Part shown: positions 8,908-46,592 of the stretch, piece after piece | How the letters are laid out: every line of letters begins with the position of its first letter | How positions within the stretch are numbered: position 1 is the first letter of the stretch | DNA from: Patescibacteria group bacterium | GTDB lineage: Bacteria; Patescibacteriota; Microgenomatia; 2-02-FULL-39-11 | Assembly: GCA_023379265.1 (NCBI GenBank) | Contig: JAMCUI010000019.1 | Span: 9,233 to 73,232, forward strand | Length of the DNA: 64,000 nt | Direction: 5' to 3' | Notes under the pieces: model-generated | What the model was told of the DNA's origin: nothing | Databases searched by the model: none | The model's input: the letters and a program-made list of their open reading frames with translations, nothing else | Translations under genes and position numbers: made by a program

Positions 8908-9579
8908 TTATACTTTTAGTATATATCCAGTTCCGCGCAGGGTGTGAATGAGTTCTTTGGATTGTGGGGAAACATGTAGTTTTTTCCTCAGGTATTTGAC
9001 ATAAGTTTCAACAATATTTGAAAATCCTTCATAATTATAATCCCAGACGTGTTCTAGAATCTGGGTTTTGGTCAGTACCCGGTTTTGGTTTCTCATAAAA
9101 TAATCAAAAAGAGCATATTCCCTACTGGTAAAAACAATAGTCTTTCCTTCGCGCTGCACCAATCTTGTAGCAGGATTCAGTGTTACGTCGTCAATTTTCA
9201 GAACTGGGGGGTCAGCTTTGTTTCCCCGCCTCAACAGAGCTCTTATTCGAGCAGTAAGCTCTATATATGAAAATGGTTTGGTAAGATAATCATCAGCTCC
9301 TTCATCCAGCCCTTTTATCTTGTCCTCAATGCCACCTTTTGCGGTCAAGATGATAATCGGTATATTGGTATTATTTCTTCTTATGGTTTTGAGGACTGAG
9401 AGGCCGTCTATTTTGGGTAACATGAGATCCAGTATAATAATGTCGTATTCGTTTATATCAAATTTTTCCAGGCCTTCCTCCCCATCTAGAGCAATATCTA
9501 CAGCATAACCTTCCTCAAGTAGCCCGCGTCTCAGGACATGTACCAGTTTCTTTTCGTCTTCAATAATCAATATTTGCAT
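8908..9579 (-). CDS. OmpR/PhoB-family response regulator
   Basis: Receiver domain (DLMLPKIDG with the conserved Asp/Lys) and a C-terminal winged-helix domain (TxxEYALFDYFMRNQNRVLTKTQILEHVWD). Confidence 0.9.
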   Translation of the reverse strand: MQILIIEDEKKLVHVLRRGLLEEGYAVDIALDGEEGLEKFDINEYDIIILDLMLPKIDGLSVLKTIRRNNTNIPIIILTAKGGIEDKIKGLDEGADDYLTKPFSYIELTARIRALLRRGNKADPPVLKIDDVTLNPATRLVQREGKTIVFTSREYALFDYFMRNQNRVLTKTQILEHVWDYNYEGFSNIVETYVKYLRKKLHVSPQSKELIHTLRGTGYILKV

Positions 9580-10881: not shown

Positions 10882-11511
10882 ATGGGAAAGAAGATAAAAA
10901 AGATAAAAATCGGTTTGGATTTTGACGGAGTGGTTGCCTATAACCCTTTTAGAGTGGTACGCGCTCCGTGGGCTTTTTTCAAAAACAGATTTTTGGGGTA
11001 TAAGAAATTAGTCTTTTTTTATCCGCGGAATACCTGGCAGCAGGTTTTTTGGCGGATCTTGCACGATTCGAGCATTTTTCCTTCAAAAGGGGTGAATTTA
11101 TTGCGTCAGTTGGTAAAAGAAGGAAAATTTGAGGCTCATCTTATTTCAGGAAGATACAGTTTTCTTGACGACCAATTAAACAGCTGGCTAAAAAAAAATA
11201 AGCTGGAAGGGATTTTTACCACAATAAATATAAACAGAAAAGATGAGCAGCCTCATCTTTTCAAAAAAAGTATGATTGCCAAGCGCAAACTGGATTTCTT
11301 TATTGAGGACAATTGGGATATTGTAGAGTTTTTGCACAACGTACATGGGGAAAAGACAAAAATTTACTGGATATACAATCTTTTGGATAGGCACAGGGTC
11401 CATAAGAATAAGTTTCCGTATCTTGAAATGGCACTTGTGGATATAGTTGAAGTCACAATGAGTCAAAGTAACATACATTCAAGGAGACAAAGGGGTATAA
11501 AAGAGAAATGA
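10882..11511 (+). CDS. HAD-superfamily-like hydrolase (5'-nucleotidase-like), hypothetical
   Basis: Motif I DFDGV near the N-terminus. Start moved to the in-frame ATG at 10882; the ORF track uses TTG at 10828. Confidence 0.35.
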   Translation: MGKKIKKIKIGLDFDGVVAYNPFRVVRAPWAFFKNRFLGYKKLVFFYPRNTWQQVFWRILHDSSIFPSKGVNLLRQLVKEGKFEAHLISGRYSFLDDQLNSWLKKNKLEGIFTTININRKDEQPHLFKKSMIAKRKLDFFIEDNWDIVEFLHNVHGEKTKIYWIYNLLDRHRVHKNKFPYLEMALVDIVEVTMSQSNIHSRRQRGIKEK

Positions 11512-28587: not shown

Positions 28588-28662
28588 GGGCCCGTAGCTT
28601 AGCGGTAGAGCGCCTGCATGGCATGCAGGAGGTCACCGGTCCAAATCCGGTCGGGTCCACCA
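28588..28662 (+). tRNA. tRNA-Ala (anticodon GGC) with encoded CCA
   Basis: Acceptor GGGCCCG/CGGGTCC with G3:U70, anticodon loop ATGGCAT, T-arm ACCGG-TCCAAAT-CCGGT, and a 3' ACCA. Confidence 0.85.
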
Positions 28663-28886
28663 GTAGAAAGTCTGCTGTCCAAATCCGGTCGGGTCCACCA
28701 GTAGAAAGTCTGCTGTCCAAATCCGGTCGGGTCCACCAGTAGAAAGTCTGCTGTCCAAATCCGGTCGGGTCCACCAGTAGAAAGTCTGCTGTCCAAATCC
28801 GGTCGGGTCCACCAGTAGAAAGTCTGCTGTCCAAATCCGGTCGGGTCCACCAGTAGAAAGTCTGCTGTCCAAATCCGGTCGGGTCC
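28640..28886 (+). repeat. Tandem array of the tRNA 3' end: the last 23 nt of tRNA-Ala(GGC), TCCAAATCCGGTCGGGTCCACCA, are reiterated 5 full and 1 partial times with an identical 15-nt spacer GTAGAAAGTCTGCTG (period 38 bp)
   Basis: Exact repeats read directly. The first copy is the tRNA's own 3' end. Confidence 0.95.
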
Positions 28887-29048
28887 ATTTTGTTCCGACT
28901 TAAAGTCGAGACTCAGTGCAAGCGCTCCGCTCATTTAGTTTGTTCAGTGTAAATACTTCTTGTTGAATGTTATAGGGAATCAGAAGGTATTTTTTGGATA
29001 CAAAACTTCAAACCTATTTATTTCTTGTGTTATACTTGACCAGGAAAT

Positions 29049-29657
29049 ATGGCGCCGCAACTTTCTATCAAACTCGTAGTTTTTAGTATCATTGATGATA
29101 AATTGAGAGTGTTTTTCAAGGATAAAAATTTACCTGTTGGGTTTCCTCAGAAAGATAAATCTTTAGACAACTCTGCGCTCAGTATTCTTCAAAAATATAT
29201 AAAAACAAGTATTTTGGATGATTATGTTGAGCAGCTTTATACAATCTCTTCAGCAGGTGGAGGGAAAGCAGGGATTGCTGTGGTTTATTATATCCTCATG
29301 CCTGGTTATTCAATAAATAGGGAGAATAAGAGCAACTGGATTGACTGTGATAATATAGGTAAAAATATGTCAGAATATGATGTAATATCTTATGCGGTGC
29401 AACGTTTGCGCTGGAAGGTGGAGTATACCAATGTTGTTTATAGTCTATTACTGGATGAATTTACTCTCAGTCAGTTACAGAAAGTGTATGAGGCGATTCT
29501 CGGAAGGGAGCTGGATAAGCGCAATTTCAGAAAAAAAATACTATCTCTGGGGTTACTTAAAAGCACCGGAAAGAAAAAAAAGGGAGAGGTGGCCCGGCCA
29601 GCCACAGTTTTTTCCTTCAAAAGCCGCAAACCTGAATTTGTAAAAGTGTTTTCATAA
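29049..29657 (+). CDS. NrtR-like regulator (degenerate Nudix N-domain with a winged-helix C-domain), tentative
   Basis: C-terminal FTLSQLQKVYEAILGRELDKRNFRKKIL resembles the NrtR DNA-binding domain as recalled. No intact Nudix box is present. It sits next to NAD-salvage-type genes. Confidence 0.4.
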   Translation: MAPQLSIKLVVFSIIDDKLRVFFKDKNLPVGFPQKDKSLDNSALSILQKYIKTSILDDYVEQLYTISSAGGGKAGIAVVYYILMPGYSINRENKSNWIDCDNIGKNMSEYDVISYAVQRLRWKVEYTNVVYSLLLDEFTLSQLQKVYEAILGRELDKRNFRKKILSLGLLKSTGKKKKGEVARPATVFSFKSRKPEFVKVFS

Positions 29658-29715
29658 ATCTCTTTTTTCCTTCTTGATTGTTTTTCCATTCTTCTGTATC
29701 ATGGATGTTTATTAT

Positions 29716-29736
29716 ATAGTGTAATTATTACACTAT
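29716..29736. promoter_or_regulatory. Perfect 21-bp palindrome ATAGTGTAAT-T-ATTACACTAT, 5 nt upstream of the phosphoribosyltransferase start codon
   Basis: Direct read. The GT-N-AC core pattern is typical of NrtR-type operators as recalled. Confidence 0.45.
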
Positions 29737-29741
29737 TCTAT

Positions 29742-30818
29742 ATGAAGTACTGGGACTTTCAGATTACTGAAAAGATTCGCCGGGGATATTTTTCAGCGAC
29801 ATATTTTAATAGGACAAAAAAAATACTAGAAGGTGAGAATAACCGTAACGTGGCTGTCATGCAACTATTTCAGAAGAATGAGGGCAGTGTTATGTGTGGA
29901 GTAGAAGAAGTGATTGAACTATTCAGGATTGGCGCAGGATATTGGGAAGGGGAGGAGTGGGTTAGTAAGTTTGACGAGATAAAGATAGAATCGTTAACCG
30001 ACGGTGATGAATTGCATTCTGGAGAAAGTGTAATGCATATTACCGGTCCCTATGTCTATTTTGCCCATCTGGAATCACTTTATCTAGGGATTTTAGCTAG
30101 GAGGACGCTGGTTGCCTCAAATACAAAAAGGGCTGTGAATGCGGCAGGCGGCAAGCCGGTCATTTTTTTTGCCGACAGGTTTGATCATTTTTTCAATCAG
30201 GAAGGAGATGGCTATGCCGCGCATATCGGAGGCGCGGCGGGTGTCTGTACACAGGCACACACCGCTTGGTGGAATGGGATAGCTTCAGGTACAATACCAC
30301 ATTCACTTATTGCAATGAATGGTGGGAATACGATAAAAGCGGCAGAATTATTTATAAAATACAACAAAGGTGTCAACCTGATTGTCTTAGTTGATTTTGA
30401 AAATGACTGTGTGAAAACCTCGGTTGAGGCAGCAAAAGCTTTGGGTGAAGATTTGTGGGGGGTAAGGCTGGATACCGCACAGAATATGATAGATAAGAGT
30501 TTGGAAAATCAGGGATCAGGAATTAGGAATCAGGAATTATATGGTGTGAATCCGATATTGGTTAAGAATGTGCGTGAAGCATTGGATAAGGAGGGTTTCA
30601 ATAACGTAAAGATAGTGGTTTCAGGAGGATTTAATGCGGAAAGAATAAAAAGATTTGAAGAGGAGAAGGTTTCTGTTGATGTCTATGGTGTAGGTTCTTC
30701 CCTTGTTCACGGACAAAACGATTTTACGGCTGATATTGTGACTATGGATTGGAAAAGAATAGCAAAAACGGGTAGGGAATTCCGGGACAATCCGAGGTTT
30801 AAGTTGGTAAAACCTTAA
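29742..30818 (+). CDS. Type II phosphoribosyltransferase family protein (nicotinate/nicotinamide PRTase-like)
   Basis: C-terminal KIVVSGGFNAERIKRF ... VDVYGVGSSLV fits the NAPRT/NAMPT/QPRT pattern (xxSGGLDxxxI ... FGVGTxL). Confidence 0.5.
   Translation: MKYWDFQITEKIRRGYFSATYFNRTKKILEGENNRNVAVMQLFQKNEGSVMCGVEEVIELFRIGAGYWEGEEWVSKFDEIKIESLTDGDELHSGESVMHITGPYVYFAHLESLYLGILARRTLVASNTKRAVNAAGGKPVIFFADRFDHFFNQEGDGYAAHIGGAAGVCTQAHTAWWNGIASGTIPHSLIAMNGGNTIKAAELFIKYNKGVNLIVLVDFENDCVKTSVEAAKALGEDLWGVRLDTAQNMIDKSLENQGSGIRNQELYGVNPILVKNVREALDKEGFNNVKIVVSGGFNAERIKRFEEEKVSVDVYGVGSSLVHGQNDFTADIVTMDWKRIAKTGREFRDNPRFKLVKP
30516..30541. repeat. 14-nt tandem repeat (ATCAGGAATTAGGA, about 1.8 copies) inside a CDS
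   Basis: Direct read; encodes GSGIRNQEL. Confidence 0.8.
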
Positions 30819-30971
30819 GAAGTCGGTGGTTAATTGTTGGTTGTCTCGCCGCTTGCGGGATCCCGCTGAGGCGGGATGAGTTATCGGTTGTTAGTTATAA
30901 ATATTAAAATTGGCTATTGGTAATTAGGAAATTTCCCTAATTGCTGTTTACCAGTTACAAATTACCAAAAT

Positions 30972-32351
30972 ATGGAATATTCTGCATTTGAGAAGGTACC
31001 GCAAAAGGACAGAACATTTTCTTTCTGGGACCAGACGGCGTTCTGGTTTTCGGCTGCCAGCATTCCTGCTGCCTGGTATTATGGAGCGCTTATGGCCGGT
31101 TGGCATGGGATAATAGGGGCGGCAGTTCTTATATTCTTGGTTAACACATTGTCGCTTTTACCCTGGGCGTATCTGGGAGAAATTGCCGCTGTGACAGGCG
31201 GGTCTTCCATGGCGATAGTTCGTCCAGCTTTCGGCATTCGCGGATCGGTTGTACCCTCGGTATTTTATCTTATTCTGGGACTGGGTTGGGGGATGGTAAA
31301 CGTCTTTTTGGGAGCTATAGCTTTGTCTTTTATATTCAAGCTCTGGTTGGGATTTCCGTCATACCTGGATCCCAATAATTTTCTTTATATGGGAGCTTAT
31401 ATATTAGCAGTATGTGTTGTCCAGGGTATTTTTGCCGTTGCCGGACATGACTGGATGAAGAAGTTGCAATGGGTAGCAACTATATTTTTCCTACTTTTGG
31501 GGTTTTACCAGACAGGAATTGTCTTGACACACTGGAATTATTTATCACTTCTGAATTGGAAACCGGCCAATATACTTGCTACATCAGTTGGACCATTTTC
31601 TTATCCCATCACTTTTGCACTTCTGGTTGATCTTCTTATTGCGTACAACTGGACATGGGAGTTTATAGGCGATTTTTCCCGGTTTGCCAAAACCAGAAAA
31701 GCAGGTACATGGGGGCCTTTTTTGGGAGCAAATATCGCCCAATACTGGTGGTTTATGGTGGGGGCAATTGCCGTAGTTTATCTTGCTCAAACAACAGGTG
31801 CATATACGCCATTGACGGCTGATCCTTCCTCAACTACAGTCAGTCTGGGACTCGGATGGCTGGCGGCACTCATTATCCTTTTTGCTACAGTGACGACAAA
31901 TGCAGGCAATATTTATGCTTCAGGATTAGGAGTTTCCAATATGCTTCTGGGGCGCAAAATTTCCATGAAAAAGATACTGAGTACTCTGGCTGTACTCATC
32001 TTCTTCCTTTCGCTTATTCCGCTTCTGTCACAGAACTTCGTAGGCTTCTTTATGTTTTTCCTGGATTTTTTGGGAGCAATAGTCGTGCCATTGTGGACAC
32101 TGACTCTAGTTGACTATTTTGTCATTAAGAGGAGAAGATATATAGATGACCTTTTCAAGACGGAAAAGGGTATTTACTGGTACCAGAAAGGCTGTAATTG
32201 GCCGGCAATTATTATTTTGCTAAGTGGTACTGTCGTTTATTGGATTATTGCTTATGCTCTTCCCGGTATAAGGAAAGAGATTACGGCGGCCATCCCGACG
32301 ATGGTTTATGTGGGAGTGGCGTATTTATTAGTGATGAAAAATAAGAAATAA
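30972..32351 (+). CDS. NCS1-family (purine-cytosine permease / CodB-like) transporter
   Basis: 12 TM helices; FIGDFSRFAK and VDYFVIKRRRY match the CodB motifs ADFVRFGR and ADYLMNRRRY. Confidence 0.6.
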   Translation: MEYSAFEKVPQKDRTFSFWDQTAFWFSAASIPAAWYYGALMAGWHGIIGAAVLIFLVNTLSLLPWAYLGEIAAVTGGSSMAIVRPAFGIRGSVVPSVFYLILGLGWGMVNVFLGAIALSFIFKLWLGFPSYLDPNNFLYMGAYILAVCVVQGIFAVAGHDWMKKLQWVATIFFLLLGFYQTGIVLTHWNYLSLLNWKPANILATSVGPFSYPITFALLVDLLIAYNWTWEFIGDFSRFAKTRKAGTWGPFLGANIAQYWWFMVGAIAVVYLAQTTGAYTPLTADPSSTTVSLGLGWLAALIILFATVTTNAGNIYASGLGVSNMLLGRKISMKKILSTLAVLIFFLSLIPLLSQNFVGFFMFFLDFLGAIVVPLWTLTLVDYFVIKRRRYIDDLFKTEKGIYWYQKGCNWPAIIILLSGTVVYWIIAYALPGIRKEITAAIPTMVYVGVAYLLVMKNKK

Positions 32352-32429
32352 CCTTTCTCTCACCCCTTTTTTGTTCGGGCAAAGAAATAGGAGAAAGAAA
32401 CGCCGGCCCGGCGGCAAAAAATAAAAACT

Positions 32430-33119
32430 ATGAATTCATCTGAATTTATAATATGGTTGGATGATTGGTGTGATAAATTGAAGTTGGTAGACTTGAGTAA
32501 AGTGGTTTCCGATCCGGAAAAGTCGGCTATTGTTTCGGTGGATGTGATAAATGGTTTTTGTCATGATGGGCCGCTTGCTAGTCCGCGGATAAAAAAAATT
32601 ATTACTCCTATCCTAAGCCTCTTTAAGAAAGCATACAAAGCCGGAGTGAGGAATTTCGTTCTTCTACAGGATAATCATGATGCCAATGCAACAGAATTTT
32701 CCACCTACCCACCTCATTGCCGGTTAGGCACAAAAGAATCCGAAACAGTTCCGGAACTGAAGAAACTTCCTTTTGCCGATAAATTTGTCATAGTCCCCAA
32801 AAATTCCATTTCTCCTTCATTTGGCACGCATTTCAACCGATGGCTTGAAACGCATAAAAGTGTCGATACTTTTATAGTAGTAGGGGATTGTACCGATATA
32901 TGCGTTTATCTCTTATCCTTGCATCTTAAAGTTTACGCTGATGCATATAATCTCAAAAGGAAAGTTATTGTTCCTGCAGATTGCGTAGATACGTTTGATA
33001 CACCTGTTAGGATGGCTAAAAAGTTAAACATCATGCCCCACGATGCTGAATTTCTTCATAAAGTTTTTCTCTACCATATGAAGCTGAACGGATTGGAAGT
33101 GGTTAAAAGTCTGACCTGA
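32430..33119 (+). CDS. Isochorismatase-family cysteine hydrolase (nicotinamidase PncA-like)
   Basis: Catalytic-Cys motif VVGDCTDICV, an early Asp (SAIVSVDVINGF), and a size of about 229 aa. Confidence 0.55.
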   Translation: MNSSEFIIWLDDWCDKLKLVDLSKVVSDPEKSAIVSVDVINGFCHDGPLASPRIKKIITPILSLFKKAYKAGVRNFVLLQDNHDANATEFSTYPPHCRLGTKESETVPELKKLPFADKFVIVPKNSISPSFGTHFNRWLETHKSVDTFIVVGDCTDICVYLLSLHLKVYADAYNLKRKVIVPADCVDTFDTPVRMAKKLNIMPHDAEFLHKVFLYHMKLNGLEVVKSLT

Positions 33120-44846: not shown

Positions 44847-46592
44847 CTAAAGTAATGGATTAGTTAATTTTATTTGGTATATTTTTACGGGTCCATTGTC
44901 AAAAATCTTCTCCAGAAAAGAGTATTTATTTATATCTCCTCCCAGATCTTTTTCCTGCCAGCCGTAGTAGATATAATTTATGCCGTTATCCCTCAGGAAT
45001 TTATACGCCTCCTGCGAGGTCCATTTGCCCCCAAAAAAGTTGTCCACATTTTGCTCTTTCGCTTGGTAATCCATAGTCTGGGTCACATGGCCGAAATAGC
45101 TTATGGTAGGGTTAAAGGCGGGGATAATGATACCCATTTTTTCGTTACTCAGAAAAACAGAATTTTTAGGAACATTTTCCTTTATGAACTTCATCGCATC
45201 CACGGAAGTTTTGGGGATATAAATATGGTCATAGACCGGCTCGTTTTTGATATAATCCATCCTGGTTTTCCATAACTTGAAAGATGAGGGAAGGGTAGTG
45301 GCAAAGAATAAGACTATAAGTGAGTATTGGATAAGACGTTTTTTTATCGGTGGGATAATCTTAAAAATTGTATAACCTGAAAGTATGCCTAAGGGAATAT
45401 ATGGTGCTTCCTCTACCAGCCTTATTTTGGCTATTCCGAAAGGATTGACAAATGGCAACATGATAAAAGGGGTTGCCGCCCAGACGCTAATAAAAAGCAG
45501 TTCCCAGCTGTTTTTTTTCACTGCGTGGTAAACTGCCGGAATTGAGAGTAAGGGAAGTATTCCGAATACTTCCAAAAGGTTCCTATTGAAATCCGGTTCT
45601 CCCCAGTTCCATCTCTCCACTCCCCAGGAGACCCATGTACTCCAGGGGAATCCCGTTGTCACTTGGTATTTGATGATGGCATAACACGCCAGTATTGCAA
45701 AAATTATGACTGAAAAACCTTTAATAAGCTGTAAGTTAATAATCAGTTTAAGTTTTGCCATATTTCGTTTCGGGTCGTGCCACTCACTACCCAGTAAATT
45801 TGGTTGCAAATTTACTGGGTACCTGGCTCGTGTTACCCGTTTAATTTCAAAATAAATTCGGGCAATATAGATAAAGTAAGCAATAGGTATGCCAACTGCT
45901 ACAGGAATGAGGACGGACGGCAGTATCATGCCGCCAATAAATATTGATATGGCGGCCAAAAGGGCATATTTTAGTTTCGGCTTCCTGAAAAAAAGAAATA
46001 CAAGTAAAATGGCGGCAAGAAGAAAAGCTTCTGAAGCGATATAGTGGGGGAGGTCATAAATCCTGTTTAGCGCATCAAGCACAATCCACCAGGGCATGCT
46101 GATGGGAAAATAGATAGGTTGCGCAAACATCAGTGTTGGGGAAATTGTGCCCAGAAGTCCGAATATAGCCCCCCAAATGGCATTTTTTCTGCTCAATATT
46201 TTTCCTGAGAGAAAGTAAACAAGTATCAGAAAAATCTCTGTAAATATTATTATTGTCAGGTGGTATGCAGCAATAGGTGAAAGGTGAAACAAGCCCGCAA
46301 CCTGTCCTATGCCGGTAAAAAATGTGTAGAATACGCCTTTCGACATTTTTTCCGTAGAGTATGGGTCTTGGTAGAGAAACCGGCCGTTTTCCCCTTGGTT
46401 TATGACGGCAAGATAAAGGTAATAGTCATGTGGCCAGTCGGAATGCACATATGGGAAAATTCGATCATGCGGGGTCTTGGCGGCACGCAAAATTATCGGC
46501 ACATTGGCAAAAATGACTACCAGGTTCATCAAGATAAAAAAGATGACAAAGCGAATGGATATAGATGTGTTTTTTTGTGGTTGTACAGACAT
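44847..46592 (-). CDS. Polytopic membrane protein, paralog family A
   Basis: HSDWPHDYYLYLAVINQG and ...YFGHVTQTMDYQAKEQNVDNFFGGKWTSQEAYKFL..INYIYYG. Confidence 0.5.
   Translation of the reverse strand: MSVQPQKNTSISIRFVIFFILMNLVVIFANVPIILRAAKTPHDRIFPYVHSDWPHDYYLYLAVINQGENGRFLYQDPYSTEKMSKGVFYTFFTGIGQVAGLFHLSPIAAYHLTIIIFTEIFLILVYFLSGKILSRKNAIWGAIFGLLGTISPTLMFAQPIYFPISMPWWIVLDALNRIYDLPHYIASEAFLLAAILLVFLFFRKPKLKYALLAAISIFIGGMILPSVLIPVAVGIPIAYFIYIARIYFEIKRVTRARYPVNLQPNLLGSEWHDPKRNMAKLKLIINLQLIKGFSVIIFAILACYAIIKYQVTTGFPWSTWVSWGVERWNWGEPDFNRNLLEVFGILPLLSIPAVYHAVKKNSWELLFISVWAATPFIMLPFVNPFGIAKIRLVEEAPYIPLGILSGYTIFKIIPPIKKRLIQYSLIVLFFATTLPSSFKLWKTRMDYIKNEPVYDHIYIPKTSVDAMKFIKENVPKNSVFLSNEKMGIIIPAFNPTISYFGHVTQTMDYQAKEQNVDNFFGGKWTSQEAYKFLRDNGINYIYYGWQEKDLGGDINKYSFLEKIFDNGPVKIYQIKLTNPLL

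What the first reader, a model, noticed from the sequence alone, without database searches (positions are those of the whole stretch)
29049..33119. Compact NAD-salvage cluster with an NrtR-like regulator and a perfect 21-bp palindromic operator candidate
Four consecutive + strand genes are an NrtR-like protein (degenerate Nudix plus wHTH), a type II phosphoribosyltransferase (nicotinate/nicotinamide PRTase-like), an NCS1 permease (DF.RF and DY....RRRY motifs) and an isochorismatase-family hydrolase (nicotinamidase-like). The perfect palindrome ATAGTGTAATTATTACACTAT ends 5 nt before the PRTase ATG and overlaps its RBS region. That placement is ideal for repression by the upstream regulator. An NCS1 permease inside an NAD cluster suggests uptake of nicotinamide, nicotinate or a riboside.
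Basis: partly seen in the sequence, partly recalled or inferred. Interest (0 to 1): 0.55.

Follow-up and report, generated by a model that had tools for sequence, protein, structure and literature searches.

The report
NrtR-controlled niacin uptake and salvage operon
A candidate-phyla-radiation bacterium carries an ordinary NrtR-repressed vitamin B3 salvage operon. Its embedded NCS1 permease is probably a niacin transporter of a family not previously linked to vitamin B3.

Summary
Four + strand genes sit at the stated coordinates. The perfect palindrome ATAGTGTAATTATTACACTAT lies at 29716-29736, 5 nt before the second gene's ATG.

- Gene 1 is an NrtR-family regulator. It has an NrtR winged-helix domain and a Nudix fold (AlphaFold pLDDT 90; TM 0.78 to SoNrtR and BtAraR). 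The catalytic Nudix box is lost.
- Gene 2 is a nicotinate phosphoribosyltransferase, above the NCBIfam equivalog cut-off. It is not a quinolinate PRTase.
- Gene 4 has the nicotinamidase catalytic triad and metal ligands.

The palindrome fits the published NrtR operator design: 21-bp symmetry with a GT-N7-AC core. TAGTGTA-N5-TACACTA is strongly enriched in 80 NrtR loci from many phyla (72 hits against 1-4 in shuffles). In seven other distinct Microgenomates-like loci the same box follows a conserved -35/-10 promoter just upstream of pncB. The gene order nrtR-box-pncB-NCS1-pncA is conserved there.

The new element is the NCS1 permease. Its clade is tied to NAD regulators in three ways:
- NrtR operons in CPR-like loci.
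- An NrtR box directly upstream of it in L096.
- NiaR immediately upstream in six high-GC loci.

No paper in the held library names an NCS1 niacin transporter. The effector (ADP-ribose) and the transported substrate are inferred, not shown.

The parts
29049..29657 (+). nrtR: NrtR-family repressor, 202 aa. The N-terminal domain has a Nudix fold with a degenerate Nudix box. The C-terminal domain is an NrtR-type winged helix.
   Evidence: Pfam PF21906 scores 87.3 bits against a cut-off of 27. The AF2 model has pLDDT 90. Foldseek gives TM 0.78 to both 3gz6 SoNrtR and 5bs6 BtAraR. The protein is 100% identical to an NCBI Patescibacteria hypothetical protein. Nudix-box positions read G31..K37..S45-I46..Q48-K49 instead of G..E..RE..EE.
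29674..29702 (+). Candidate sigma-70-type promoter of the pncB operon: -35 TTGATT (29674-29679), 17-nt spacer, -10 TATCAT (29697-29702).
   Evidence: Consensus scan. The same -35 TTGAnn / -10 TAtnAT arrangement precedes the box in L081, L084, L088, L090, L092 and L094. It is identical in L164 although the rest of that intergenic region differs.
29716..29736 (.). NrtR operator (NrtR box): ATAGTGTAATTATTACACTAT, a 21-bp palindrome with a GT-N7-AC core.
   Evidence: Searches give position and uniqueness. One search gives the published design of NrtR sites. The motif TAGTGTA-N5-TACACTA gives 72 hits in 80 NrtR loci against 1-4 in shuffles. It is conserved immediately upstream of pncB in relatives.
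29742..30818 (+). pncB: nicotinate phosphoribosyltransferase, short archaeal-type, 358 aa.
   Evidence: NCBIfam NF005529 scores 395.1 bits against a cut-off of 378. nadC TIGR00078 scores only 34.8 against 198. PDB neighbours are 2i14, 2f7f and 1ytd.
30841..30880 (+). GC-rich hairpin inside the 153-nt pncB-NCS1 gap. It is probably not part of the mechanism.
   Evidence: The gap folds with z = -2.57. The hairpin lies in a roughly 50-nt insertion that is absent from the closest relative L161. It is unique in the window and has no T-run after it.
30972..32351 (+). NCS1-family permease, 459 aa: predicted niacin (nicotinamide/nicotinate) importer.
   Evidence: Pfam PF02133 1.8e-30. It falls far below the CytX, CodB and NCS1 NCBIfam cut-offs. 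It is conserved between pncB and pncA in every close-homologue locus long enough to show it. In L096 an NrtR box lies directly upstream. In L101, L103, L107, L109, L112 and L152 NiaR lies directly upstream.
32430..33119 (+). pncA-like nicotinamidase, 229 aa, of the isochorismatase/cysteine-hydrolase fold, with N- and C-terminal extensions.
   Evidence: Pfam PF00857 1.8e-21. Invariant residues are D38/K124/C158 and D81/H83/H96. They align to M. tuberculosis PncA D8/K96/C138 and D49/H51/H71 (hhalign probability 98.6%). Homologues of 45-53% identity follow nrtR and NrtR boxes in Anaerolineae loci.

Best explanation
This is a vitamin B3 uptake-and-salvage operon of a Patescibacteria (Microgenomates/Gottesmanbacteria-like) bacterium, repressed by an NrtR-family regulator.

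Mechanism proposed:
1. nrtR (29049-29657) is transcribed separately. No NrtR box lies upstream of it.
2. An NrtR dimer binds the 21-bp box at 29716-29736. The box lies 13 nt downstream of the -10 element of the pncB promoter (29674-29702) and 5 nt upstream of the pncB ATG. Bound NrtR blocks initiation or promoter clearance of pncB-NCS1-pncA.
3. When the effector binds the catalytically dead Nudix-fold domain, NrtR leaves the DNA. The effector is most likely ADP-ribose, the product of NAD cleavage.
4. The operon is then expressed. The NCS1 permease imports nicotinamide and/or nicotinate. PncA deamidates nicotinamide to nicotinate. PncB converts nicotinate to NaMN, which enters NAD synthesis through NadD and NadE encoded elsewhere.

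Shown here: gene identities, protein folds, catalytic residues, the motif match, and conservation of the promoter-box-gene arrangement.
Inferred: actual binding, repression, the ADP-ribose effector, co-transcription of all three genes, and the transported substrate.
For: Regulator:
- NrtR winged helix and full-length fold match to SoNrtR and BtAraR.

Operator:
- Published NrtR sites are 21-bp palindromes with a GT-N7-AC core (PMC2330246). The window site fits exactly.
- TAGTGTA-N5-TACACTA at >=12/14 matches occurs 72 times in 80 NrtR loci (50 loci) against 1-4 in shuffles.
- In L081, L084, L088, L090, L092, L094 and L164 the box sits 2-20 nt before the pncB ATG, behind a conserved -35/-10.
- The arms are invariant while the 5-nt spacer varies. 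This is the pattern of a protein-binding site.
- A 52%-identical NrtR in Gottesmanbacteria locus L001 sits beside nadC and nadA, with a box in front of nadB.

Enzymes:
- The PncB equivalog is passed.
- PncA residues are conserved.

Operon:
- In relatives the genes are separated by 9-20 nt, for example in L084.

Transporter:
- Conserved pncB-NCS1-pncA order.
- L096 has nrtR plus an NMNAT-like gene divergent from box-NCS1.
- NiaR lies immediately upstream in six high-GC loci. That protein matches B. halodurans NiaR (7cv0) at 3e-42.
- NrtR-linked and NiaR-linked members fall in different subclades of the family.
Against: - No binding, expression or transport data exist.
- The NrtR protein scores 77.5 bits against a 400-bit cut-off for NCBI's NtrR equivalog, and Pfam NUDIX does not detect its N-terminal domain.
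- It is about 27 residues shorter at the N-terminus than SoNrtR. It therefore probably lacks the arm that supplies Tyr10 and Phe15 to the adenine of ADP-ribose in SoNrtR (described in PMC4666351). The effector could differ: NAD in NdnR, ATP in NadQ, arabinose in AraR.
- In the window the pncB-NCS1 gap is 153 nt with a hairpin. Read-through to NCS1 and pncA is therefore less certain than in relatives.
- Many NCS1 homologues outside the CPR have no NAD neighbours. Their neighbours are MoaA/aminotransferase/ALDH, BioY, luciferase-like genes, or nothing informative.
- No nadD or nadE was found in the window.
Confidence: 0.8

Rival explanations
1. The NCS1 permease has nothing to do with NAD. It imports a nucleobase, hydroxymethylpyrimidine (CytX-like) or another compound, and merely sits inside the cluster.
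For: The best NCBIfam match is CytX (102.8 bits), followed by the generic NCS1 model. The nearest solved relatives are the hydantoin and cytosine permeases. In other lineages the homologues sit next to a class-III aminotransferase plus ALDH, BioY, or luciferase-like genes, and not next to NAD genes.
Against: The CytX score is far below its cut-off of 309.85. The position between pncB and pncA is kept in more than 12 loci whose proteins are only 48-72% identical. An NrtR box lies directly in front of the NCS1 gene in L096. NiaR lies directly upstream in six loci of a different subclade. Three independent links to two unrelated NAD regulators are hard to explain by chance.
Confidence: 0.13
2. 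The permease imports nicotinamide riboside (or another ribosylated pyridine) rather than the free base, as yeast Nrt1 of the NCS1 family does.
For: That yeast Nrt1 is an NCS1-family nicotinamide riboside carrier is my own recollection and was not tested here. The NCS1 fold accommodates nucleosides.
Against: The operon partners PncA and PncB act on free nicotinamide and nicotinate. No riboside kinase, NadR or nucleosidase is in the cluster or in the conserved relatives. NiaR, which is linked to the family in other lineages, responds to niacin (PMC2330245).
Confidence: 0.12
3. The palindrome acts at the RNA level, as a terminator of nrtR or a hairpin masking the pncB start, and not as a protein-binding DNA site.
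For: It can form a 9-bp stem with a 3-nt loop at -8.2 kcal/mol. It lies between two genes.
Against: The fold is no better than shuffles (z = -1.36; 19 of 200 shuffles fold as well). No T-run follows it. Across loci the arm sequence itself is invariant (TAGTGTA/TACACTA) and shows no compensatory changes. The same sequence motif accompanies NrtR genes in many phyla and in different gene contexts. A conserved promoter lies between nrtR and the box.
Confidence: 0.03
4. NrtR binds the box, but its effector is not ADP-ribose. It could be NAD, NaMN, ATP or a pyridine base, and it might act as a co-repressor rather than an inducer.
For: Family members use different ligands: ADP-ribose (SoNrtR, Synechocystis), NAD (NdnR), L-arabinose (BtAraR) (PMC4666351). 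NadQ structures hold ATP and NAD. The window protein lacks the N-terminal arm that contacts adenine in SoNrtR.
Against: Every NAD-linked NrtR tested in the papers read here responds to ADP-ribose. The EQLYT segment shared with SoNrtR and NadQ is invariant in this clade.
Confidence: 0.35

Closest known systems
NrtR regulons of the niacin salvage I pathway (pncA-pncB), Rodionov et al. 2008, NAR 36:2047 (PMC2330246)
   Same: A Nudix-related repressor with a C-terminal winged helix. A 21-bp palindromic operator with a GT-N7-AC core lies between the promoter and the start codon. The target genes are pncB and pncA.
   Different: The host is a Patescibacteria/Microgenomates bacterium, a group not covered in 2008. 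The regulator is short (202 aa), is not detected by Pfam NUDIX and lacks the N-terminal arm. The operon contains an NCS1 permease, whereas the transporters named for these regulons are NiaP and PnuC.
Shewanella oneidensis NrtR (PDB 3GZ5, 3GZ6, 3GZ8)
   Same: The overall fold matches (TM 0.78, rmsd 3.0 A over 207 columns). Both are catalytically inactive Nudix sensors with a wHTH.
   Different: Identity is 25-28%. The target in S. oneidensis is prs-nadV. SoNrtR has a longer N-terminus, whose Tyr10 and Phe15 contact adenine.
Predicted or characterised niacin transporters NiaP (MFS), NiaX, NiaY and the riboside carrier PnuC (PMC2330245; PMC6593275)
   Same: The assignment uses the same logic: co-regulation with, and clustering beside, niaR/nrtR and pncA/pncB.
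   Different: This is a different protein family (NCS1, Pfam PF02133). No paper in the held library links NCS1 proteins to bacterial niacin uptake.
NCS1 transporters Mhp1 (hydantoin), CodB (cytosine) and CytX (HMP)
   Same: The superfamily is the same. The TM3 Trp/Asn and TM8 Asn positions that align with the Mhp1 ligand-site residues W117/Q121 and N314/N318 are invariant in this clade. The assignment of those Mhp1 residues to the ligand site is from my own knowledge.
   Different: The relationship is only remote (profile E 4e-12 and 1e-10). The protein is far below every NCBIfam equivalog cut-off. The genomic context is different.

Membership tests
NrtR family of transcription regulators | C-terminal NrtR-type winged-helix DNA-binding domain | tested here: met
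   Pfam PF21906 scores 87.3 bits (cut-off 27) over residues 131-190.
NrtR family of transcription regulators | N-terminal Nudix-fold effector domain | tested here: met
   Sequence models miss it: there is no Pfam NUDIX hit. The AF2 model (pLDDT 90) superposes full-length on SoNrtR and BtAraR (TM 0.78). Its N-terminal half matches Nudix hydrolases at E ~1e-4.
NrtR family of transcription regulators | 21-bp palindromic operator with a GT-N7-AC core upstream of NAD-metabolism genes | tested here: met
   The site at 29716-29736 fits the design described in PMC2330246. The motif is enriched in 80 NrtR loci and conserved before pncB in relatives.
NrtR family of transcription regulators | Score above NCBIfam equivalog NF050029 (ADPR-responsive repressor) | tested here: not met
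   77.5 bits against a cut-off of 400. The protein is a divergent member and not that equivalog. The NrtR of L096 also fails (118 bits).
NrtR family of transcription regulators | DNA binding relieved by ADP-ribose | not testable with these tools
   This needs EMSA, SPR or ITC. The paper with SoNrtR ligand contacts (Huang 2009) is not held.
Nudix hydrolases (active enzymes) | Nudix box GX5EX7REUXEEXGU with catalytic glutamates | tested here: not met
   Residues 31-53 read GFPQKDKSLDNSALSILQKYIKT. The E, RE and EE positions are K37, S45-I46 and Q48-K49.
Nicotinate phosphoribosyltransferase (PncB) | Score above a curated NAPRTase equivalog model, and not a quinolinate PRTase | tested here: met
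   NF005529 scores 395.1 against 378. nadC TIGR00078 scores 34.8 against 198. PDB neighbours 2i14, 2f7f and 1ytd are NAPRTases or NAPRTase-like.
Nicotinamidase (PncA) | Cysteine-hydrolase catalytic triad Asp-Lys-Cys | tested here: met
   D38, K124 and C158 are invariant in 11 homologues.
Nicotinamidase (PncA) | Metal-binding Asp-x-His ... His (WPPHC-type) site | tested here: met
   D81, H83 and H96 (YPPHC) are invariant and align with D49, H51 and H71 of Mtb PncA. Mtb H57 is replaced by the invariant E89.
Nicotinamidase (PncA) | Score above NCBIfam equivalog PRK11609 | tested here: not met
   22.5 bits against 174. This is a divergent subfamily with N- and C-terminal extensions. The best PDB profile hits are 3eef and 5zn8, followed by nicotinamidases 2wt9 and 3s2s.
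NCS1 (nucleobase:cation symporter-1) superfamily | Pfam Transp_cyt_pur domain over the whole protein | tested here: met
   PF02133 scores 106.6 bits (cut-off 23.5) over residues 9-426.
CytX / CodB / generic NCS1 equivalogs | Score above the curated cut-off | tested here: not met
   CytX 102.8 against 309.85; TIGR00800 98.8 against 353.1; CodB 47.8 against 326.
Known niacin transporter families (NiaP, NiaX, NiaY, PnuC) | Homology to one of these families | tested here: not met
   The only Pfam family hit is PF02133. NiaP is an MFS protein (PF00083). NiaX and NiaY were described as lacking similarity to known families (PMC2330245).

The most novel reading that the evidence does not exclude
The NCS1 clade represented by window 30972-32351 is a fourth, previously unrecognised family of prokaryotic vitamin B3 (nicotinamide/nicotinate) importers. 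It is recruited independently into NrtR regulons (Patescibacteria, L096) and NiaR regulons (a high-GC lineage). It would supply the uptake step for B3-auxotrophic CPR bacteria and fill part of the acknowledged gap in known B3 transporters.
Probability: 0.6. Interest if true: 0.55.

Novelty: new variant of a known kind. Interest (0 to 1): 0.4.

Why it matters
The regulatory part is textbook NrtR biology. It matters mainly as a clean, well-supported annotation for an uncultivated lineage.

The useful lead is the transporter. A 2019 survey states that the three known B3 transporter families were confidently detected in only 25% of B3-auxotrophic gut genomes. It also states that no committed B3 transporter is known even in E. 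coli (PMC6593275). An NCS1-type niacin importer tied to two unrelated NAD regulators is directly testable and would improve vitamin-dependency predictions.

The cluster also shows that this reduced-genome Patescibacteria member depends on external niacin. A relative with a 52%-identical NrtR (L001) instead keeps nadA, nadB and nadC under the same box.

Tried and rejected
1. RNA hairpin or terminator reading of the palindrome. Rejected: the fold is not better than shuffles, and the arms are conserved in sequence without covariation.
2. The hairpin in the pncB-NCS1 gap as a regulatory element. It lies in an insertion absent from the closest relative L161 and is unique in the window. It is treated as incidental.
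3. Second NrtR boxes in the window, including upstream of nrtR and of NCS1. None scores better than 11/14. There is therefore no evidence for autoregulation.
4. Mapping SoNrtR ADP-ribose contacts onto the window protein. The structural paper (Huang 2009; PMID 19604474, PMC2896262) is not held. Only the contacts quoted in PMC4666351 could be used.
It returned only two close relatives among 80 loci. Close relatives were recovered through the NCS1 scan and by exact-protein look-ups.
6. Search for nadD and nadE in the window. Pfam on 30 further ORFs found none. Extending the contig gave only about 2 kb more.
7. Literature searches for an NCS1 niacin transporter found nothing. The library is incomplete, so absence there is not proof of novelty.
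8. Family-wide assignment of the substrate. Not claimed, because many homologues have uninformative or different neighbours.

Full report
**Observation.** The four + strand ORFs are at 29049-29657 (202 aa), 29742-30818 (358 aa), 30972-32351 (459 aa) and 32430-33119 (229 aa). The sequence ATAGTGTAATTATTACACTAT occupies 29716-29736. It is a perfect 10+1+10 palindrome and ends 5 nt before the ATG at 29742. It has no second copy in the window at up to three mismatches. Perfect palindromes of this geometry are expected 0.115 times per window in first-order Markov simulations. The window has two, the other being an unrelated one at 45553 inside a coding region. The window alone therefore gives only modest statistical support.

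**Organism and surroundings.** The regulator is 100% identical to an NCBI protein from a 'Patescibacteria group bacterium'. Its nearest relatives are from Gottesmanbacteria and Microgenomates MAGs. The window starts in a 23S-5S rRNA operon and carries two tRNA-Ala genes. The cluster is bounded upstream by tRNA-Ala(GGC) plus a perfect 38-bp tandem array and downstream by a treble-clef zinc-finger gene. The flanking genes are unrelated to NAD: Rho, an M23/LysM peptidase, a glyoxalase-fold protein and large membrane proteins. No nadD or nadE was found among 30 further ORFs.

**The regulator.**
- Pfam finds the NrtR winged-helix domain (7.5e-25) but no NUDIX domain.
- NCBI's NtrR equivalog aligns over residues 2-196 but scores 77.5 bits against a cut-off of 400.
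- An AlphaFold2 model built on 30 homologues is confident (pLDDT 90, pTM 0.85).
- The model superposes full-length on BtAraR (5bs6, TM 0.78) and on DNA-bound SoNrtR (3gz6, TM 0.78, rmsd 3.0 A). Its N-terminal half matches Nudix hydrolases.
- The Nudix box is degenerate: K37, S45-I46 and Q48-K49 replace the E, RE and EE positions. The domain is therefore a sensor and not an enzyme, as in other NrtRs (PMC6800001).
- The protein is about 27 residues shorter at the N-terminus than SoNrtR. In SoNrtR that arm supplies Tyr10 and Phe15, which contact the adenine of ADP-ribose (PMC4666351). The identity of the effector here is therefore inferred only.

**The operator.**
- Rodionov et al. 2008 describe NrtR sites as 21-bp palindromes with a conserved GT-N7-AC core, lying over the promoter or between promoter and start codon (PMC2330246). 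The window site has G6T7-N7-A15C16 centred in a 21-bp palindrome.
- I collected 80 NrtR loci from GTDB genomes of many phyla. TAGTGTA-N5-TACACTA at >=12 of 14 positions occurs 72 times in 50 of those loci, against 1-4 times in block shuffles.
- The box recurs in seven other distinct low-GC Microgenomates-like loci: six found through the NCS1 gene (L081, L084 [= L085 and L095], L088, L090, L092, L094) and L164, found through the 70%-identical NrtR P0002.
- All seven share one layout: -35 TTGAnn, a 17-18 nt spacer, -10 TAtnAT, 9-17 nt, the box TTAGTGTA-N5-TACACTA[AT], 2-20 nt, then the ATG of pncB.
- The arms are invariant while the five central bases differ. This is the signature of a protein-binding site and not of an RNA stem. 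The RNA fold of the palindrome is unremarkable (z = -1.36).
- In L164 the promoter and box are identical to the window, although a GC-rich segment of about 150 nt has been inserted upstream.
- In the window the promoter-like element is TTGATT-17-TATCAT at 29674-29702. This places the box at roughly +7 to +27.
- A 52%-identical NrtR in Gottesmanbacteria locus L001 sits beside nadC and nadA, with a box just before nadB. The same regulator clade thus controls de novo synthesis in a relative.

**The enzymes.**
- The PRTase passes NCBIfam's nicotinate-PRTase equivalog NF005529 (395.1 against 378 bits). It fails nadC (34.8 against 198 bits).
- Its solved relatives are 2i14, 2f7f and 1ytd, which are NAPRTases or NAPRTase-like.
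- The fourth protein belongs to the isochorismatase/cysteine-hydrolase fold.
- In an alignment of 11 homologues, D38, K124, C158, D81, H83 and H96 are invariant.
- A profile comparison with M. tuberculosis PncA aligns them with the triad D8/K96/C138 and the metal ligands D49/H51/H71 (probability 98.6%). The Mtb sequence was entered from memory.
- The subfamily is divergent (NCBIfam PncA model 22.5 against 174 bits) and has conserved N- and C-terminal extensions.
- Homologues of 45-53% identity follow nrtR and NrtR boxes in Anaerolineae loci L021, L025, L049 and L062. This is independent support for a role in NAD salvage.

**The permease.**
- It is an NCS1 protein (PF02133, 1.8e-30). It lies far below the cut-offs for CytX, CodB and the generic NCS1 model. 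It is only remotely related to Mhp1 and CodB.
- Close homologues (63-94% identity) always lie between pncB and pncA wherever the contig is long enough. Of the 80 loci, 14 show pncB, 12 show pncA and 9 show nrtR. The syntenic relative L161 shows the same order.
- Gaps in those loci are as small as 9-20 nt. This supports a single operon.
- In L096 (GC 0.50) the arrangement differs. An NrtR with a detectable NUDIX domain and an NMN/NaMN-adenylyltransferase-like gene are divergent from the NCS1 gene. A box, TTAGTGTAGTAATGACAATAT, lies 6 nt before the NCS1 ATG.
- In a high-GC lineage (homologues 54-58% identical) the gene immediately upstream on the same strand is NiaR (HTH_11 + 3H). That protein matches B. 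halodurans NiaR (7cv0) at 3e-42. Four loci are niaR-NCS1 and two are niaR-bioY-NCS1.
- A rough NJ tree places the NrtR-linked and NiaR-linked members in different subclades.
- Other subclades give no NAD signal:
  - about 40 near-syntenic soil contigs with moaA / NCS1 - class-III aminotransferase - ALDH;
  - BioY neighbours;
  - luciferase-like neighbours;
  - nothing informative.
- I therefore assign niacin uptake to the clade in the window with moderate confidence. I do not extend it to the whole family.

**Comparison with what is known.** NrtR-controlled pncA/pncB salvage is established (PMC2330246). The niacin transporter families named in the papers I could read are NiaP, NiaX and NiaY, plus PnuC for the riboside (PMC2330245; PMC6593275). 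The 2019 survey states that these were detected in only 25% of B3 auxotrophs. Four full-text searches found no paper linking NCS1 proteins to bacterial niacin uptake. Source annotations of the homologues are generic, such as 'cytosine permease' or 'NCS1 family'. The held library is incomplete, so novelty is likely but not proven.

**Verdict.** The observation and the interpretation both stand.
- The regulator-operator-enzyme part is a new member of a well-known system in an uncultivated phylum.
- The conserved NCS1 permease makes it a new variant and gives a specific, testable transporter prediction.
- Unshown steps are NrtR binding and repression, the effector, co-transcription across the window's unusually long 153-nt and 78-nt gaps (the first holds a non-conserved hairpin), and the transported substrate.

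Noticed in passing
window 28639-28887 (overlaps tRNA-Ala(GGC) 28588-28662): There is a perfect tandem array: a 38-bp unit, 6.6 copies, 100% identical. It starts inside the T-arm/acceptor/CCA end of the tRNA-Ala gene and reiterates that 3' part plus 14 nt. It could be an assembly artefact, a slipped duplication or a scar of tRNA-targeted integration.
   Followed up: partly
window 45553-45573, 45792-45821 and 11237-11263: Three other long perfect inverted repeats occur: GGAAGTATTCCGAATACTTCC; CCCAGTAAATTT-GGTTGC-AAATTTACTGGG; and AGAAAAGATGAG-CAGC-CTCATCTTTTC followed by an A-run. Two lie inside the 581-aa ORF 44847-46592 (- strand, no Pfam hit). None resembles the NrtR box.
   Followed up: no
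L001 6554-10467 (Gottesmanbacteria MAG JACPZE010000044.1): A 52%-identical NrtR lies next to nadC and nadA (- strand) and nadB (+ strand). A box TAGTGTAAAAAATACAATA at 8918 sits in the divergent nadA/nadB region. Some CPR relatives thus keep de novo NAD synthesis under the same regulator.
   Followed up: partly
L108, L109, L152, L166, L167, L168: A BioY-family gene lies directly next to NCS1 homologues, in L167 and L168 with a 4-nt overlap. In L109 and L152 the order is niaR-bioY-NCS1. This BioY-like protein may not be biotin-specific, or the genes may form a multi-vitamin uptake unit.
   Followed up: no
L110-L150 and others (about 40 soil metagenome contigs, GC ~0.64): A near-identical syntenic block reads moaA-like radical SAM / NCS1 homologue (51-54% identical) / class-III aminotransferase / aldehyde dehydrogenase. 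It probably comes from one abundant soil lineage. It suggests a different substrate, or none related to NAD, for that subclade.
   Followed up: partly
window 30841-30880 and L164 3660-3770: Short GC-rich, hairpin-forming insertions interrupt otherwise AT-rich intergenic regions. They are absent from the closest relatives at the same position. They may be small mobile or repeat elements.
   Followed up: partly
window 29737-29741, 30957-30971 and 32415-32429, and the equivalent places in L081-L094: No Shine-Dalgarno-like sequence precedes pncB, the NCS1 gene or pncA, and the box lies only 2-20 nt from the pncB ATG. Translation of these genes may start without an SD.
   Followed up: no
window 32430-33119; L021, L025, L049, L062, L081-L091: The PncA-like subfamily has conserved extensions absent from classical 180-190 aa nicotinamidases. 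The N-terminal one reads F-L-x-W-L-x-x-W and the C-terminal one P-H-D...L-H-x-x-F-L-Y-H-M-x-L-N-G. It is found next to NrtR in both CPR and Anaerolineae.
   Followed up: partly
window 29049-29657 and alignment A1: About 200-aa NrtR proteins without the N-terminal arm form a large clade in Microgenomates metagenomes: 7817 proteins with E <= 1e-5 among the 8000 candidates scored. Sources often annotate them as '8-oxo-dGTP diphosphatase' or 'NUDIX hydrolase', which is probably wrong.
   Followed up: no
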